Source: a virus (lineage: Duplodnaviria; Heunggongvirae; Uroviricota; Caudoviricetes). From it: a stretch of DNA of 5,048 nucleotides. Made by a program: the position numbers and the translations under genes. The notes below the pieces were generated by a model. The model was given only the letters and a program-made list of their open reading frames with translations. It was not told where the DNA came from and made no database searches. This document shows, one piece after another, positions 1 through 5,018 of the stretch; position 1 is the stretch's first letter; each line of letters begins with the position of its first letter. Where the stretch lies: IMG/VR virus record IMGVR_UViG_2693429642_000009. One strand, 5' to 3'.

Positions 1-501
1 GATACGACCGGGAAACAGCGCCCCGTCCGTCTCGGTCGGTGTGGCCAGCACAAACGAGGCCGTCATGGCTGTCAGCTGCGACATCTGCTCCACCACCCAG
101 CGGTCACTCAGCTCCTGCTCCAGGTCCGCTTCCGGATTGCCCGCAACGAAATTCACCGCATCCAGAAAACGGGCATACACCCGGCGGCGGACCACCGTGG
201 CCCCCACCAGGCTCTGCAAATCCTCCGCCATCCCGGTGACCAGACCGAACAGATTGGACACCGTCAGCGACGGTCTGGCACTGCTGCCCCGGCCGTTCAT
301 CTCAAAACCGCTGCCGTCAATCGGGTATGCCTCATACTTACGCCCCTGCCAGGTGACCGGCTCCCCTTTTTCATTCAGCTCATTACAGAAAAAATACCGC
401 TCACCGCCCTGTACCGTCAGGTCGATTTCCCAGAGTACCACCCGCGGTGACTGCTCTGATTTAACCGACTCGTTCAGACTTTCTTCGTGAATATCCTGCA
501 T
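1..501 (-). CDS. L: Minor tail protein L (lambda gpL family), N-terminal 167 codons; the 3' end lies beyond the window start
   Basis: Manual reverse-complement translation from the ATG at 501-499 gives MQDIHEESLNESVKSEQSPRVVLWEIDLTVQGGERYFFCNELNEKGEPVTWQGRKYEAYPIDGSGFEMNGRGSSARPSLTVSNLFGL..., which closely matches my recollection of the lambda gpL N-terminus (MQDIRQETLNE...VVLWEIDL...RYFFCNE...). The frame stays open to position 1. The start overlaps the M stop as ATGA. The position immediately downstream of M matches lambda synteny. This ORF is absent from the supplied track because it is truncated by the window edge. Confidence 0.85.
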   Translation of the reverse strand, partial: MQDIHEESLNESVKSEQSPRVVLWEIDLTVQGGERYFFCNELNEKGEPVTWQGRKYEAYPIDGSGFEMNGRGSSARPSLTVSNLFGLVTGMAEDLQSLVGATVVRRRVYARFLDAVNFVAGNPEADLEQELSDRWVVEQMSQLTAMTASFVLATPTETDGALFPGRI

Positions 502-830
502 CAGTTCACCACCTGCTTAAACTCCGCGCTGAACTCAACGCGCAACATCCCGACCCGCGCAGACCACCCGGCACAGGTCACCTTTATCTGCCGGTATGCA
601 TAGGGTGGCTTCCACAAAAATGCCTTCCAGCCACCGTGCTCTGCCAGAAACGCTTCCAGATGCCGGGCCTCCTCCCGGGTCACGGAAAGCATCACCCGGT
701 ATGTTTTCAGGTCAGCATTCAGCCCTGCCGCCATACGCTGTGAGTACCCGTCACCAAAACGCACTTCACGCACCGATGGCTGCGAGTTCACCTCCATATC
801 CGGCTTCACTTTCCAGCGAAAGGTTTTCAT
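501..830 (-). CDS. M: Tail tip assembly / minor tail protein M (lambda gpM family), 109 aa
   Basis: The 109-aa ORF (MKTFRWKVKPDMEVNSQPSVREVRFGDGYSQR...LRVEFSAEFKQVVN) has the same length as lambda gpM and near-identical N- and C-termini as I recall them. It sits between H and L as in lambda. A Shine-Dalgarno-like GGGAG lies 6 nt upstream, and the start overlaps the H stop as ATGA. Confidence 0.93.
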   Translation of the reverse strand: MKTFRWKVKPDMEVNSQPSVREVRFGDGYSQRMAAGLNADLKTYRVMLSVTREEARHLEAFLAEHGGWKAFLWKPPYAYRQIKVTCAGWSARVGMLRVEFSAEFKQVVN

Positions 831-3400
831 CCACCGCTCCCTGATAACATACCGCCATCACGCAACTGCAGCCGGAGTTCATCCTGTGCCCCCTTGCGGG
901 CCATCTCATACACCGCTTTCATCAGCTGCGGCCCTGCCCGCCCGTTGGGGCCGTCGTTCTGAATCACCACGTGATTGTTCTGATTAAAATTAATGCCTTC
1001 CGCCCGCCGCATCTGCGCCGGACTTCCGGCACCGCCGACATAACCACCTTCCGCATAGCCCCGCATCAGGCGGTACAGATTGCCGACACCAATCCGGCTG
1101 GTCGCCTCCTTCGTGAAGACAAACTCCCCGCGATGAACAATCCCCGCAGGTTCATATTTACCCCCCGTCCCCGTAAATCCCCCGGTCGCGAAATGGAAGT
1201 TCGCCGCCGCAGCCTGAATGGCCGTCCCCGTGGAAGCGGATGCGCCACCACCGAAAGCACCACCAATGGCGCTGCCGATACTCCCGACAATCCCCACCAT
1301 CGCCTGCTTCAGAAAAATCTCTGTCAGCATGGAGAGCACGGAACGGGTGAAACCACGCCAGTTCTGTTCGCTGCCGGTCAGCATCGCTGCCATATTCTGT
1401 GCAATACCGTCAAAGGTCTGCGTGGCCACGCTTTTAACCTGCGAAAAACTGTCCGTCGCACTTTCCGCCCACTCGCCCCAGCCGGACTTCATCCCGGCCA
1501 TCCAGCTTCCACGAAGCTGCTCCTCCGCAGACCAGGTGTTCTTCAGTGCAGATGTGGCCTTCGCCAGCGCAGCCGGATTATCACCGTACACCTCACGAAG
1601 GCGCTGCTCTTCCGACTCCCGCTGCGCCTGACGGTCGGTGAGGCCGCGGGCTTTTGCGCTGATGGCGGCCTGCTTCGCGCTCTGCTGCTGTTCAAACCGC
1701 GCCGCCTGCTGTGCCAGCTCATTCAGCCGTTTCTGGTGTTCAACCTTGTCGCCCAGGTCAGCCAGCTGGCGTTTGTACTCCAGCGTCTCTTTCTCATGGG
1801 CCAGCAGGGATTTTTCCTGCTCAGATAACTGCCGTTTCGTGGCGGCCTCTTTCAGGACCACATACTGATTTTCCGCTTTCCATAAATCCCGGCGCTGCTG
1901 GCTGATTTTCTCATTCACACCGCTGTGTTTTTCCAGCGTCCTGAGCTCGGTTTCAAGCGCCAGCAGGGCTGCATGCGCCCGGTCTTCCTGGCGCTCACCG
2001 GCAGACACCTTCACAGCAGATGGCTTTTTCAGCGTCGACTCATAATCCTTTTTCGCCGCCGCCATCAGCGTGTTGTAATCCGCCTGCAGGATTTTTCCGT
2101 CTTTCAGGGCCTTATTCAGCTCTTCCTGCCGGGCGGTATATTTCTCCAGTGGCGTCAGCAGGCGCTCATACGCCTTCTGCGCCTCTCCGGTATACTTCAG
2201 CTGTGACGACTCACGCTCAGCCCGGTCCCTTGCCGCCAGTTCACCGGCTTTTTCCATATCCGACTGCAGCGTTGCCGCTGCCAGACCCAGACGGGCATTT
2301 TCCCGGTCATCCCATGCGCCCTGAAGGTTGGCCCGGAAAGAGGAGGTTTTACCGCGGCGCTGGCTCCGGCTCTGGTACCACTGCCATTTTTTATCCGCCT
2401 CATCAAATGCCTTCTGCGCACTGGCGAGCATATCCGCTGAGGATTCCGGACGACCGATATCCAGAATGGCATCCCACATCGATTTGAATGCCTTCCCTGT
2501 TTTATCCGCCCAGGTCTCCAGTGTTCCCATGTTTTCTTTCAGGCGACGGGTCTGCTCATCAAAGCCTTTCGTGGCGATATCGTTCGCCGCCTGCAATGCC
2601 CCGGCCTCGTCTCCGGAACGCTGCAGCTGTGCAACATACGCAATCTGCTCTGCCGTCACGTTACGGAACTGGCGCGCCATCGCCATCAGTCCCGACGTCG
2701 GGTCAGTGGTCAGCTTCCCGAAGGCTTCAGCGACTTTATCCACCTCCACACCGGATGCAGACGCAAAACGCGCGACACTCTGGTTGATGGCATCAAACTG
2801 TTCACCACCACGCACACCGGCATTCACCAGGGCTGCCAGTGACTCTCTCGCCTGGTTAAACGTCAGCCCTGCTGCCTGCCCGGCTCTTGAGAGAGTCAGC
2901 ATACGATCGGCAGTCAGTCCGGACTGATTACCGGAAAGAACCAGGGTTTTATTAAACGCTGAAAGCGTGGAATCTCCCAGGTACCAGGCGTACACCAGCG
3001 CACCTGTCGCCACCGCCAGCGAGGTGACCCCGACCATCGGCAGGGTGATCGCACCGGCGAGCCCCCTGAACATGGGGATCATCCCGCCGAAGGAGTCCTT
3101 CACCTGACCGCCCTGTTGCAGCAGGATCAGCCAGGGATTCTGACCACCGGCAAGCTGCGTGGCGATATCCGTAAACTGTGCGGGCAGGGTTCGCATGGCC
3201 GCTTTATACTGCCCGACGGAAATCCCGGCTTTTTGTGCAGCCAGCGCCTGGCGGCTCAGGCCCTGTTCAACAGCACTGGCGGTTTTTCTGGCGTCGGTAT
3301 CCAGACCTGAAAAATGACGCCTTACCCGGCTCATCTGCTCATCGAAACGGACAGCATCCAGACTCAGGTCAATAACAAGATCACCAACCGGCTGGGACAT
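827..3400 (-). CDS. H: Tail tape measure protein H (lambda gpH family), 857 aa
   Basis: The 857-aa ORF compares with 853 aa for lambda gpH. The N-terminus (MSQPVGDLVIDLSLDAVRFDEQMSRVRRHFSG...) and C-terminal third (...TQTFDGIAQNMAAMLTGSEQNWR...GGKYEPAGIVHRGEFVFTKEATSRIGVGNLYRLMRGY...) closely match gpH as I recall it. It has a long Ala/Glu/Lys/Arg/Gln-rich central region typical of tape measure proteins. A GGGAGG Shine-Dalgarno sits 8 nt upstream of the ATG. It is in the expected position between G-T and M. Confidence 0.95.
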   Translation of the reverse strand: MSQPVGDLVIDLSLDAVRFDEQMSRVRRHFSGLDTDARKTASAVEQGLSRQALAAQKAGISVGQYKAAMRTLPAQFTDIATQLAGGQNPWLILLQQGGQVKDSFGGMIPMFRGLAGAITLPMVGVTSLAVATGALVYAWYLGDSTLSAFNKTLVLSGNQSGLTADRMLTLSRAGQAAGLTFNQARESLAALVNAGVRGGEQFDAINQSVARFASASGVEVDKVAEAFGKLTTDPTSGLMAMARQFRNVTAEQIAYVAQLQRSGDEAGALQAANDIATKGFDEQTRRLKENMGTLETWADKTGKAFKSMWDAILDIGRPESSADMLASAQKAFDEADKKWQWYQSRSQRRGKTSSFRANLQGAWDDRENARLGLAAATLQSDMEKAGELAARDRAERESSQLKYTGEAQKAYERLLTPLEKYTARQEELNKALKDGKILQADYNTLMAAAKKDYESTLKKPSAVKVSAGERQEDRAHAALLALETELRTLEKHSGVNEKISQQRRDLWKAENQYVVLKEAATKRQLSEQEKSLLAHEKETLEYKRQLADLGDKVEHQKRLNELAQQAARFEQQQSAKQAAISAKARGLTDRQAQRESEEQRLREVYGDNPAALAKATSALKNTWSAEEQLRGSWMAGMKSGWGEWAESATDSFSQVKSVATQTFDGIAQNMAAMLTGSEQNWRGFTRSVLSMLTEIFLKQAMVGIVGSIGSAIGGAFGGGASASTGTAIQAAAANFHFATGGFTGTGGKYEPAGIVHRGEFVFTKEATSRIGVGNLYRLMRGYAEGGYVGGAGSPAQMRRAEGINFNQNNHVVIQNDGPNGRAGPQLMKAVYEMARKGAQDELRLQLRDGGMLSGSGG
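837..841 (-). promoter_or_regulatory. Shine-Dalgarno-like GGGAG for M, inside the 3' end of H
   Basis: The minus strand reads GGGAG, then CGGTGG, then ATG (830-828). This is consistent with translational coupling to H through the ATGA overlap. Confidence 0.45.
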
Positions 3401-4252
3401 ATCTCACACCTCCCGGAATCCCCGCTGAAGCCATCATTAATGCGGCATCATCCACCATGACATCCGCCACATCCGCAGACGATAAAATATCGCGCCCTCC
3501 GTCCCCACCGAACCGGACGCCTCCGGCAAGTCCTGCCGCTTTCTGCATCAGCATGTCTTCCTCATCCGGCATCTCCGTCTGCGCTTCCTCTCGCCGGGGA
3601 GCCAGCAGACTGAAATCAGAGGGATGCATATCCGGATCGCAAAAAAACAGGCTGAGTACAGCGTACGTCAGCCCGGAAAAATGCATATCCAGCTGGGTAT
3701 CCTGAAAATAATGCGTGCGGTAAAAACGGTGCCAGTCGGCATATTCGGTGGATGTCATCCCGGCAAGCATGGCGCGCCAGTCGGGTCTCCCCATCTCACG
3801 CGCCAGTCTGAGGGCAAAGTTCAGCTCGCCGTCGAAGACTTTCCCGCAGAAAAATCATCATCAGTCAGCGTGTTATTTTTCGCCACTTCAGTAATATCAG
3901 TATCCGGACGAACAGCTTCGATCATCCCGGACAGGCACAACACCACGTCTTCCGCCCGGGCAATGGCATCGGCAGGCCAGGTGGTGAGCACTTCCTGCTC
4001 TATCTTCATCACGGCCTCATTCATTGACGGTGACCCCGTTTTCTGCGGATGGTTATGCCACAGGGACATCGCCACCAGAAACGCGCCGGTTCTGACGAGA
4101 TCTTCCACGCTTACCTGCAGGTTGCCGCTGGATTCTGCCTGTTCTGCACGCCGTTTCAGGAGGGCAAGATGCTCGATACGCTGCAGCGCAGACAATTCGG
4201 AAAGCGTGACAGACACACCGTTATATTCAAATTGTTCTGTTTTCAGAAACAT
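3381..4252 (-). CDS. GT: Tail assembly chaperone G-T fusion made by a programmed -1 ribosomal frameshift (about 290 aa: G residues 1-138, then 152 residues in the -1 frame)
   Basis: A slippery heptamer G_GGA_AAG lies on the minus strand (plus coordinates 3839-3845), five codons before the G stop. The -1 frame is open from that site (GKVFDGELNFALRLAREMGRPDWRAML...) to a TGA at 3381-3383. The track's 137-aa ORF 3381..3794 is the downstream part of this frame. The arrangement is the same as the lambda G/GT frameshift. Confidence 0.8.
3409..3414 (-). promoter_or_regulatory. Shine-Dalgarno (GGGAGG) for H
   Basis: The minus strand reads GGGAGG followed by an 8-nt spacer (TGTGAGAT) and the H start ATG at 3400-3398. 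The site lies inside the 3' end of the G-T coding frame. Confidence 0.6.
3821..4252 (-). CDS. G: Tail assembly chaperone G (lambda gpG family), 143 aa
   Basis: The ORF (MFLKTEQFEYNGVSVTLSELSALQRIEHLALLKRRAEQAES...SLWHNHPQKT...SAGKSSTAS) closely matches lambda gpG (140 aa) as I recall it. A GGAGG Shine-Dalgarno sits 6 nt upstream of the ATG. It lies immediately downstream of V on the minus strand, as in lambda. Confidence 0.92.
   Translation of the reverse strand: MFLKTEQFEYNGVSVTLSELSALQRIEHLALLKRRAEQAESSGNLQVSVEDLVRTGAFLVAMSLWHNHPQKTGSPSMNEAVMKIEQEVLTTWPADAIARAEDVVLCLSGMIEAVRPDTDITEVAKNNTLTDDDFSAGKSSTAS
3839..3845 (-). promoter_or_regulatory. Programmed -1 ribosomal frameshift slippery heptamer GGGAAAG (X_XXY_YYZ) for G -> G-T
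   Basis: The plus strand reads ctttccc at 3839-3845, so the minus strand reads G GGA AAG in the G frame (codons Gly137-Lys138). This is the same heptamer used in lambda G/T. The -1 frame downstream is open for 152 codons. Confidence 0.75.
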
Positions 4253-4265: not shown

Positions 4266-5018
4266 TTACCCTGCAGCGCCCGCTTCAGTAACGGTGACTT
4301 CAGCCACTGCGGCGAACTGACCATTTCCGCTCACCACAGGGATCTGCACCTTACCTGTCGCCACGCCGTTTACCGTAATTGTCATATCTTTCACACTAAT
4401 GGTGGCTTTCGACGGATCGGCGGAAACCGCTCTGAACGTCTTGTCGGTTGCACTTTCCGGCTCAAAAGAAACCGTCAGGGTGGTTGTTTTCCCTTTTGCC
4501 ACCGTACCGGATGTAGGCGTCACCTTAATCGCACTGACCGGCGTAATTTTGCTGCGTTCTTCCGCTACAGAAGGTTTACCCACGTTAGTGACTTTCACCG
4601 TGCGGGTGATCACTTCTTTCGCCGTCACGGCCTTACCGATACTGCTGACCCAGCCACGAAACACATCCACCGTGCCATTCGGAAAACGGATTTTATAGGC
4701 CCGGACATCCCCGCTTTCAAACCAGCCTATAAGCCCTTTCTGACCTTCTTCTCCCGGTTTCCTGGCCAGCGTAAAACTGGTATCTCCTGCAGACTTCTGC
4801 CCCTGCCCGGTCGCGCTCCAGTCCGCGTCTTCATCATCCAGGTAGTTATCATCGTAGGGTTCTGCCGTCATCTTGCCCGGCGTCAGATCCTTCACCTTAG
4901 CCAGTCGCTGCCAGTCATCGTCTGACAACGGGTTTGCATAGGCGTCACCCTGACCGTTATAAACCCACAGGGTGGTACCGGCACCTTTTACCGGCTCAAG
5001 GGGATTTGGTGTTGACAT
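4266..5018 (-). CDS. V: Major tail tube protein V (lambda gpV family), 250 aa, with a C-terminal Ig-like (Big_2-type) domain
   Basis: The ORF ([48 protein letters not shown]...[40 protein letters not shown]...[39 protein letters not shown]) closely matches lambda gpV (246 aa) as I recall it. A GAGGA Shine-Dalgarno sits 4 nt upstream of the ATG at 5018-5016. The stop TAA is at 4266-4268. Confidence 0.95.

What the first reader, a model, noticed from the sequence alone, without database searches (positions are those of the whole stretch)
3381..4252. Conserved G/G-T programmed -1 frameshift: slippery GGGAAAG five codons before the G stop, with a 152-codon open -1 frame
The heptamer G_GGA_AAG sits exactly where lambda has it, near the 3' end of G, and the -1 frame behind it is open down to the H start region. 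In lambda, a fixed low ratio of G-T to G is required for tail assembly, and this recoding arrangement is conserved across long-tailed phages. The genome annotation will be wrong if T is called as a separate Met-initiated ORF (3381..3794), as an automated caller would do.
Basis: partly seen in the sequence, partly recalled or inferred. Interest (0 to 1): 0.5.

Follow-up and report, generated by a model that had tools for sequence, protein, structure and literature searches.

The report
Lambda-type G/GT tail chaperone frameshift
This is the textbook phage-lambda trick, here in a lambda-like E. coli prophage: a few percent of ribosomes slip back one base at GGGAAAG near the end of tail gene G and make a longer G-T fusion protein needed to build the tail. 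It is real but already well known.

Summary
On the minus strand, G (4252..3821, 143 aa) carries one in-phase X_XXY_YYZ heptamer, G_GGA_AAG (3845..3839). It lies five sense codons before the TGA. The -1 frame opens only at 3854, after three tandem TGAs, and runs 152 codons past the heptamer to the stop at 3383..3381, overlapping the start of H.

The heptamer aligns column-for-column with lambda's experimentally mapped site. G and the -1 segment match the curated lambda G and T families, and the T profile starts 11 residues upstream of the ATG at 3794.

That ATG has no Shine-Dalgarno and is Phe or Tyr in 65 of 79 distinct relatives. All 101 distinct junction sequences from 340 related loci keep an in-phase A_AAR at this spot. 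Substitutions between the heptamer and the G stop are silent in the -1 frame.

A stem-loop (3831..3761) is predicted 7 nt downstream. It is more stable than synonymous recodings in the lambda and phi80-like clades but absent in distant relatives. A hairpin with the same 7-nt spacer was flagged for this gene cluster in 2014.

Verdict: correct, ordinary, already known.

The parts
3821..4252 (-). Gene G, tail assembly chaperone (143 aa plus TGA at 3823..3821). GGAGG Shine-Dalgarno 6 nt upstream of the ATG at 4252.
   Evidence: ORF list; sequence; PF06894 E=1.6e-49; TIGR01674 phage_lambda_G equivalog, 164.6 bits against a cutoff of 74.45.
3839..3845 (-). Slippery heptamer G_GGA_AAG, where tRNA-Gly and tRNA-Lys re-pair to GGG_AAA. 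Codons 137-138 of G.
   Evidence: Single occurrence in the window. Only in-phase X_XXY_YYZ in G. Same column as lambda's heptamer. In-phase A_AAR in all 101 unique junctions.
3855..3863 (-). Three consecutive TGA codons in the -1 frame, read out of ACT GAT GAT GAT. They close the -1 frame just upstream, so a productive shift must occur within 3854..3824.
   Evidence: Stop map of the three frames; sequence.
3381..3845 (-). The -1 frame (T) coding segment of the G-T fusion: GGG AAA, then 152 codons, then TGA at 3383..3381. Predicted product is G residues 1-138 plus 152 residues, 290 aa in total.
   Evidence: Translation. PF06223 at residues 167-245 of the fusion. TIGR01715 phage_lam_T, 205.7 bits, with profile position 1 at residue 7 of this segment, 11 residues upstream of the ATG.
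3792..3794 (-). ATG that automated callers use as the T start. It is an internal Met (codon 18 of the -1 segment, in ...LAREMGRPDW...), not a conserved initiator.
   Evidence: No Shine-Dalgarno upstream (CTGGCGCGTGAG|ATG). This codon is ATG in 14 of 79 unique relatives and TTC, TTT or TAC in 65. PGAP and PhiR12_2_star annotate T from here.
3761..3831 (-). Predicted downstream stem-loop, 7 nt after the heptamer. Helix 1 pairs 3831..3824 with 3768..3761. Helix 2 pairs 3805..3790 with 3785..3770. Candidate modest frameshift stimulator; unproven.
   Evidence: MFE -38.2 kcal/mol, z -2.69 against dinucleotide shuffles. z -2.44 against synonymous recodings. Pairs kept 97% in the lambda clade and 91-93% in the phi80 clade, 56-64% in distant clades, about 35% when slid. 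One fixed compensatory change, G-C to A-U.
827..3400 (-). Gene H, tape measure protein (857 aa), the binding partner of G and GT. Its start overlaps the end of the T frame by 20 nt. GGAGG lies 8 nt upstream of the ATG.
   Evidence: PF06791 and PF09718; sequence.
4266..5018 (-). Gene V, major tail tube protein (250 aa) with a C-terminal Big_2 Ig-like domain. It is the partner recruited by the T domain.
   Evidence: PF16461 E=7.4e-66 and PF02368 E=2.9e-18.

Best explanation
This is the G/GT programmed -1 ribosomal frameshift of a lambda-like prophage tail module.

Most ribosomes translating G stop at the TGA (3823..3821) and make the 143-aa chaperone gpG. A small fraction slip back one nucleotide when GGA and AAG occupy the P and A sites at G_GGA_AAG (3845..3839). 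The Gly and Lys tRNAs re-pair to GGG and AAA. E. coli's single tRNA-Lys (mnm5s2UUU) reading AAG is the shift-prone step.

Translation then continues in the -1 frame for 152 codons, giving a 290-aa G-T fusion. By homology with lambda, the G part binds the tape measure protein H. The T part recruits the tail tube protein V. The fixed low GT:G ratio is needed for correct tail assembly, and neither protein ends up in the virion.

T has no start of its own.

**Shown here:** the anatomy, the homology, the conservation of the slip site, and selection on the -1 frame upstream of the ATG.

**Inferred from lambda experiments:** the actual slippage, its efficiency of about 4%, and the assembly role.

**Possible but unproven:** a stem-loop starting 7 nt downstream raises the efficiency.
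For: 1. **Anatomy.** There is one in-phase X_XXY_YYZ in G, inside the 31-nt two-frame overlap.
2. **Homology.** The heptamer is in the same alignment column as lambda's, with near-identical flanks. The fusion matches PF06894 plus PF06223, and the two parts match TIGR01674 and TIGR01715. The gene order is V-G-T-H-M.
3. **The -1 frame is translated upstream of the ATG.**
   - The -1 peptide GKVFDGELNFALRLAREMGRPDWRAML aligns without gaps across 16 phages from the slip site onward.
   - The TIGR01715 profile begins 11 residues before the ATG.
   - In the lambda/window clade, 6 nucleotide variants between the heptamer and the G stop give 2 peptides in the -1 frame but 6 in the 0 frame.
4. **No independent T start.** The ATG is present in only 14 of 79 unique relatives. 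It has no Shine-Dalgarno, whereas G and H each have GGAGG.
5. **Slip site conserved.** All 101 unique junctions from 340 loci have an in-phase A_AAR there: GGAAAAG, GGGAAAG, AAAAAAG, GGCAAAA or GGGAAAA. The G stop sits 0, 1 or 5 codons later.
6. **Literature.**
   - The lambda G-T -1 frameshift sets a ratio of about 30:1 that is crucial for tail assembly and is widely conserved (PMC5009743).
   - The 0 frame is kept about 96% of the time, and tRNA-Lys thiolation modulates the shift (PMC3296357).
   - G_GGA_AAG is highly shift-prone in E. coli (PMC5009743).
   - The E. coli prophage gpG cluster G_GGA_AAG_4 is listed as a true case (PMC4066793 supplement).
7. **Curated records.** Phage 21 and phi80 annotate the joined product, and phi80 also annotates the slippery sequence.
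Against: There is no direct evidence of the fusion protein for this particular prophage, and it is not known whether the prophage is expressed.

The bare heptamer is expected by chance about once per window, so the case rests on phase, position and conservation.

The bare G_GGA_AAG motif gave only 0.28% shifting in an E. coli reporter without a stimulator (PMC4066793 supplement). Context must therefore contribute to reach lambda's roughly 4%, and that contribution is not identified with certainty.
Confidence: 0.94

Rival explanations
1. T is an independent gene, initiated at ATG 3794 and translated separately from G, as RefSeq/PGAP and several phage records annotate it. The heptamer would be incidental.
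For: An ATG-initiated 137-aa ORF exists at 3794..3381. It is annotated as 'phage tail assembly protein T' in L003 and L002. The heptamer alone is not rarer than chance.
Against: - There is no Shine-Dalgarno before this ATG, although G and H have GGAGG.
- The codon is Phe or Tyr in 65 of 79 unique relatives.
- The conserved T-family profile and conserved residues extend 11-17 codons upstream of it, right up to the slip site.
- Substitutions upstream of the ATG are silent in the -1 frame.
- From my recollection of Levin et al. 1993 (paper not held here), T sequences in lambda are found only as the G-T fusion.
Confidence: 0.03
2. The G/T split is a frameshift mutation or sequencing error in what should be a single GT gene (a pseudogene or an artefact).
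For: G and T are adjacent, in different frames, and always function as one fusion.
Against: The same two-frame arrangement, with the G stop 0-5 codons after the slip site, is present in all 340 related loci and in lambda itself. A permanently fused GT is non-functional in TP901-1 (PMC4493119), so free G is required.
Confidence: 0.01
3. The fusion is made by transcriptional slippage of RNA polymerase at the A run, not by ribosomal slippage.
For: Some relatives carry AAAAAAG, a run of six As. Transcriptional slippage is used in other systems (PMC5009743).
Against: The run here is only three As. From general knowledge, polymerase slippage needs longer homopolymers. In lambda the shift responds to tRNA-Lys U34 thiolation, which is a ribosomal property (PMC3296357).
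Confidence: 0.02

Closest known systems
Bacteriophage lambda G / G-T -1 programmed frameshift (Levin, Hendrix and Casjens 1993; Xu, Hendrix and Duda 2004, 2013, 2014)
   Same: - Identical heptamer G_GGA_AAG in the same alignment column, five codons before the G stop.
- Same V-G-T-H-M context and the same protein families.
- The downstream 80 nt are nearly identical.
   Different: - The fusion protein shows about 76% identity to lambda by tblastn.
- G has a different, longer acidic linker before the slip site (143 aa against 140 aa), which puts three -1 frame TGAs right upstream. The overlap is 31 nt here against 61 nt in lambda.
- T is 8 residues longer.
- This copy has not been tested experimentally.
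E. coli prophage gpG cluster 'G_GGA_AAG_4' and ECs1801 cluster 'A_AAA_AAG_25' of Sharma et al. 2014 (PMC4066793)
   Same: Both are lambdoid prophage tail chaperone genes of E. coli, marked as true frameshift cases. A downstream hairpin is predicted with a 7-nt spacer, the same spacing as found here.
   Different: That study found the hairpin in only 51% of cluster members and no significant excess stability. Here a synonymous-recoding control gives z of about -2.4 for the window.
phi80 / N15 / HK225-type gpG-T frameshift
   Same: Homologous G and T, the same position, and the same downstream stem-loop architecture.
   Different: The slip site is G_GAA_AAG, which is not a perfect X_XXY_YYZ and probably relies on a single tRNA-Lys slip. 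The window's ATG position is Phe in these phages.
E. coli dnaX A_AAA_AAG -1 frameshift
   Same: The same shift-prone A_AAG / tRNA-Lys step in the same host (PMC5009743).
   Different: By general knowledge, dnaX uses an upstream Shine-Dalgarno-like element plus a strong stem-loop, reaches about 50% efficiency, and gives a shorter product. No Shine-Dalgarno-like element is visible upstream here.

Membership tests
Lambda-type tail assembly chaperone G/GT -1 programmed ribosomal frameshift | Two overlapping ORFs located between the major tail (tube) gene and the tape measure gene | tested here: met
   V 5018..4266, G 4252..3821, T frame 3854..3381, H 3400..827. V and H families confirmed.
Lambda-type tail assembly chaperone G/GT -1 programmed ribosomal frameshift | Upstream ORF belongs to the gpG chaperone family | tested here: met
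   PF06894 E=1.6e-49; TIGR01674 equivalog, 164.6 bits against a cutoff of 74.45.
Lambda-type tail assembly chaperone G/GT -1 programmed ribosomal frameshift | Downstream ORF is in the -1 frame relative to G and belongs to the gpT family | tested here: met
   Frame map; PF06223; TIGR01715 equivalog, 205.7 bits against a cutoff of 77.35.
Lambda-type tail assembly chaperone G/GT -1 programmed ribosomal frameshift | In-phase slippery sequence (X_XXY_YYZ or at least Z_ZZN) inside the two-frame overlap near the 3' end of G | tested here: met
   G_GGA_AAG at 3845..3839 is the only in-phase heptamer in G and lies within the 31-nt overlap.
Lambda-type tail assembly chaperone G/GT -1 programmed ribosomal frameshift | Slip site homologous to the experimentally mapped lambda site and conserved among relatives | tested here: met
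   Same column as lambda. In-phase A_AAR in 101 of 101 unique junctions from 340 loci.
Lambda-type tail assembly chaperone G/GT -1 programmed ribosomal frameshift | T has no independent, conserved translation start, and the -1 frame is under protein-level selection from the slip site onward | tested here: met
   ATG in 14 of 79 relatives and no Shine-Dalgarno. The T profile and conserved residues extend upstream of the ATG. Substitutions are silent in the -1 frame.
Lambda-type tail assembly chaperone G/GT -1 programmed ribosomal frameshift | A G-T fusion protein is actually produced at a few percent of G and is required for tail assembly | not testable with these tools
   Known for lambda from the literature. 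There are no expression data for this prophage.
-1 PRF signals with a downstream RNA stimulator (dnaX, IS911 or IS3 type) | Conserved, covarying RNA structure 5-9 nt 3' of the heptamer that raises efficiency | tested here: inconclusive
   - Stem-loop at 3831..3761 with a 7-nt spacer: z -2.69 against shuffles and z -2.44 against synonymous recodings.
- It is kept in the lambda and phi80 clades with one compensatory change, but only 56-64% paired in distant clades.
- No Rfam family matches.
- The sequence also encodes the most conserved T motif, which confounds the test.

The most novel reading that the evidence does not exclude
The stem-loop at 3831..3761 begins 7 nt after the heptamer and is shared by the lambda and phi80/N15 clades. 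It may be a genuine, clade-specific frameshift stimulator that lifts G_GGA_AAG from its bare level of about 0.3% to the roughly 4% needed for the 30:1 G:GT ratio. Distant relatives, which place the stop codon 0-1 codons after A_AAG and lack the structure, would use a different tuning device. Lambda's G-T ratio would then be set by an RNA element, not by the heptamer alone.
Probability: 0.3. Interest if true: 0.3.

Novelty: already known. Interest (0 to 1): 0.1.

Why it matters
The practical value lies in annotation. The true second product is a 290-aa G-T fusion, join(4252..3839, 3839..3381) on the minus strand. RefSeq/PGAP instead calls a 137-aa Met-initiated T, and it does so across close homologs of this window found in E. 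coli genomes.

Biologically it adds nothing new. It is another copy of the best-studied phage recoding site.

Two minor points may be useful to specialists. First, across this G/T family the invariant core is A_AAR (Lys) and not the full heptamer. Second, the downstream stem-loop is limited to the lambda and phi80 clades.

Tried and rejected
- **Rfam.** An E-value scan of the whole window gave no frameshift-element family, only one chance lncRNA hit at E=0.17.
- **PDB.** A sequence search with the 290-aa fusion found no solved relative.
- **Xu et al. 2013** (PMC3762263) is not held, and Levin et al. 1993 could not be read. What lambda experiments say about downstream sequence requirements therefore rests on my memory and is not used as evidence.
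- **Genome-contig scan with T.** It returned mostly identical lambda sequence in unrelated genomes, which looks like contamination, and added little diversity.
- **First viral-contig scan with G.** It returned only relatives 97-100% identical. Diversity had to come from a protein search of phage records and from queries using distant T proteins or a T alignment.
- **Upstream Shine-Dalgarno-like stimulator, as in dnaX.** None is visible in ACTGATGATGATTTTTCTGC.
- **Transcriptional slippage.** Rejected because the A run is only 3 nt long.
- **Family-wide conserved RNA structure.** Rejected because distant clades do not keep it.
Full report
**What is in the window.** All the long ORFs with family matches lie on the minus strand:
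- V, 5018..4266, tail tube protein (PF16461) with a C-terminal Big_2 domain
- G, 4252..3821, 143 aa (PF06894)
- an ATG ORF at 3794..3381 (PF06223, 'T')
- H, 3400..827, an 857-aa tape measure protein (PF06791 plus PF09718)
- M, 830..501 (PF05939)

This is the lambda tail module. The whole 5,048 nt matches E. coli chromosomes at up to 98.4% identity, and 3,680 of 5,426 complete E. coli genomes hold a place covering at least 80% of it. The G-T stretch is 96-98% identical to Escherichia phages 204576 and PhiR12_2_star.

**Checking the observation.** GGGAAAG occurs once, at 3845..3839 on the minus strand. Relative to G it is phased G_GGA_AAG, and it is the only in-phase X_XXY_YYZ in the gene. After AAG come five sense codons (TCT TCG ACG GCG AGC) and then TGA at 3823..3821.

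The -1 frame read from 3845 gives GGG AAA, 152 sense codons, and a TGA at 3383..3381. That matches the '152-codon' figure. It ends 20 nt inside H.

Upstream, the -1 frame is closed by three tandem TGAs at 3863, 3860 and 3857. A ribosome can therefore pass productively from G into T only within 3854..3824.

The heptamer alone is not statistically remarkable, since 0.94 are expected per window. The phase, the position in a 31-nt overlap and the conservation are what carry the case.

**Homology with lambda.** In a three-way alignment with lambda (NC_001416) and PhiR12_2_star, the heptamer is in the same column. The surrounding 32 nt differ from lambda at two sites, TCT against TGT and GGC against GGT. 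Both changes are silent in the -1 frame (Val, Gly) and non-synonymous in the G frame (Ser/Cys, Ala/Val).

The G protein reaches the NCBIfam equivalog TIGR01674, and the -1 segment reaches TIGR01715. The TIGR01715 profile begins at residue 7 of the -1 segment. That is 11 residues upstream of the Met encoded by ATG 3794, so a Met-initiated T would lack conserved family positions.

**Conservation of the recoding site.** Sixteen phages spanning 34-97% identity to the fusion protein were fetched: lambda, 21, Stx1/Stx2 phages, VT1-Sakai, HK225, mEp213, phi80, cdtI, Ayreon and Providencia PSTCR8lys. From the slip site onward the -1 peptide aligns without gaps as GK(V/A)xxxE(L/M)xF(A/V)xxLARE(M/F)GRPDWR(A/R)ML. 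The G stop moves between 5, 1 and 0 codons after the AAG.

With further viral contigs, 340 loci gave 101 unique junctions. Every one has an in-phase A_AAR at the homologous position: GGAAAAG 81, GGGAAAG 14, GGCAAAA 3, AAAAAAG 2 and GGGAAAA 1. The invariant core is the Lys A_AAR tetramer. The window and lambda carry the full canonical heptamer.

In the lambda/window clade, six nucleotide variants of the 15 nt between the heptamer and the G stop encode two peptides in the -1 frame but six in the 0 frame.

**T has no start of its own.** The codon at 3794..3792 is ATG in only 14 of 79 unique relatives, and TTC, TTT or TAC in the other 65. It is preceded by CTGGCGCGTGAG, with no Shine-Dalgarno. G and H each have GGAGG 6-8 nt upstream of their ATGs.

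**Annotation.** RefSeq/PGAP annotates 'phage tail assembly protein T' as a separate ORF at the position equivalent to 3794..3381 (L003), as do PhiR12_2_star and several others. RefSeq lambda lists T as an unjoined 10115..10549. Curated records for phage 21 and phi80 use a joined CDS, and phi80 also marks the slippery sequence.

**Mechanism.** The literature states the following:
- Low-level -1 frameshifting links gpG and gpGT at a molar ratio of about 30:1 that is crucial for tail assembly.
- The G part binds the tape measure protein and the T part binds the major tail protein.
- Neither protein is in the virion.
- The arrangement is widely conserved in long-tailed phages (PMC5009743).
- The 0 frame is maintained about 96% of the time, and hypomodification of tRNA-Lys(mnm5s2UUU) raises shifting and lowers phage yield (PMC3296357; PMC7618472).
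- G_GGA_AAG is among the most shift-prone heptamers in E. coli (PMC5009743).

That the same happens here is an inference from near-identity of the signal and its context.

**Downstream structure.** Folding 3845..3760 gives -38.2 kcal/mol, with z -2.69 against dinucleotide shuffles. The structure is a two-helix stem-loop at 3831..3761 that starts 7 nt after the heptamer.

Because this stretch also encodes the most conserved T motif, I compared native sequences with synonymous recodings:

| Sequence | z |
|---|---|
| window | -2.44 |
| lambda | -1.86 |
| phi80 | -2.57 |
| HK225 | -2.29 |
| L166 | -3.10 |
| distant clades (cdtI, L287, L305, L328, L331, Providencia) | -1.4 to +1.8 |

Pair retention is 97% in the lambda clade and 91-93% in the phi80 clade. 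It is 56-64% in distant clades, against about 35% for slid controls. One compensatory change is fixed between the two clades, G-C to A-U at alignment columns 16 and 84. RNAalifold's covariation term is small, at -0.45 kcal/mol.

Sharma et al. 2014 had already flagged a hairpin with a 7-nt spacer in their E. coli gpG cluster. It was present in 51% of members with no significant excess stability (PMC4066793 supplement). Their reporter values for GGGAAAG were 0.28% bare, 3.8% with IS911 stimulators and 43% with IS3 stimulators.

Those values suggest that lambda's roughly 4% needs some contextual help. The stem-loop is therefore a reasonable but unproven candidate stimulator. No Rfam family covers it.

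**Verdict.** The observation and the interpretation are both right. The feature is the classic, experimentally established lambda G/GT frameshift in a common E. coli lambdoid prophage. It is already known. The value is correct annotation of the 290-aa fusion, not discovery.

Noticed in passing
L005-L021 (genome-contig hits): T-gene matches with identical statistics (73% identity to the window's T) turn up in assemblies of unrelated bacteria: Neobacillus, Oceanobacillus, Pseudomonas, Shewanella, Kitasatospora, Chromatium, Leeuwenhoekiella and Enterococcus. Most sit on low-coverage contigs, and three of those contigs are about 48.4-48.5 kb long. L006-type junctions are identical to lambda. This looks like lambda control or ligation-standard DNA contaminating the assemblies.
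   Followed up: partly
MW057783.1 (hit H60): 'Campylobacter phage CJLB-4' (48,361 bp) has G/T match statistics identical to phage lambda, at nearly the same coordinates as lambda (9630-10462). It is probably lambda DNA deposited under a Campylobacter phage name.
   Followed up: no
window 3381..3560 (minus strand; C-terminus of the T frame): The T segment ends with two copies of a G(L/I)xGGVR(F/Y) motif about 40 residues apart: AAGLAGGVRFGGDG and SAGIPGGVRYVPAG. Lambda has the same duplication. phi80, HK225, cdtI and VT1-Sakai T proteins stop after a single copy. Lambda-type T therefore carries a C-terminal extension of about 35-40 aa, which overlaps the H start.
   Followed up: no
window 3855..3863 (minus strand): There are three consecutive TGA stops in the -1 frame immediately upstream of the slip site, produced by the Asp-Asp-Asp codons ACT GAT GAT GAT in G. 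They shrink the two-frame overlap to 31 nt, against 61 nt in lambda. The G C-terminal linker before the slip site is the most divergent part of G relative to lambda.
   Followed up: partly
L281, L285, L162 and the cdtI/Providencia-type loci: Relatives use non-canonical slip sites: G_GAA_AAG, G_GCA_AAA followed directly by TAG, and G_GGA_AAA. The G stop is 0 or 1 codon after the Lys codon. Only the A_AAR tetramer is invariant, which suggests that a single tRNA-Lys slip, perhaps helped by an adjacent stop codon, suffices in much of the family.
   Followed up: partly
window 4266..5018 and 827..3400 (minus strand): V carries a C-terminal Big_2 Ig-like domain (residues 161-241). H is 857 aa against 853 aa in lambda (from the annotated coordinates), which would imply a marginally longer tail if length scales with H.
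   Followed up: no
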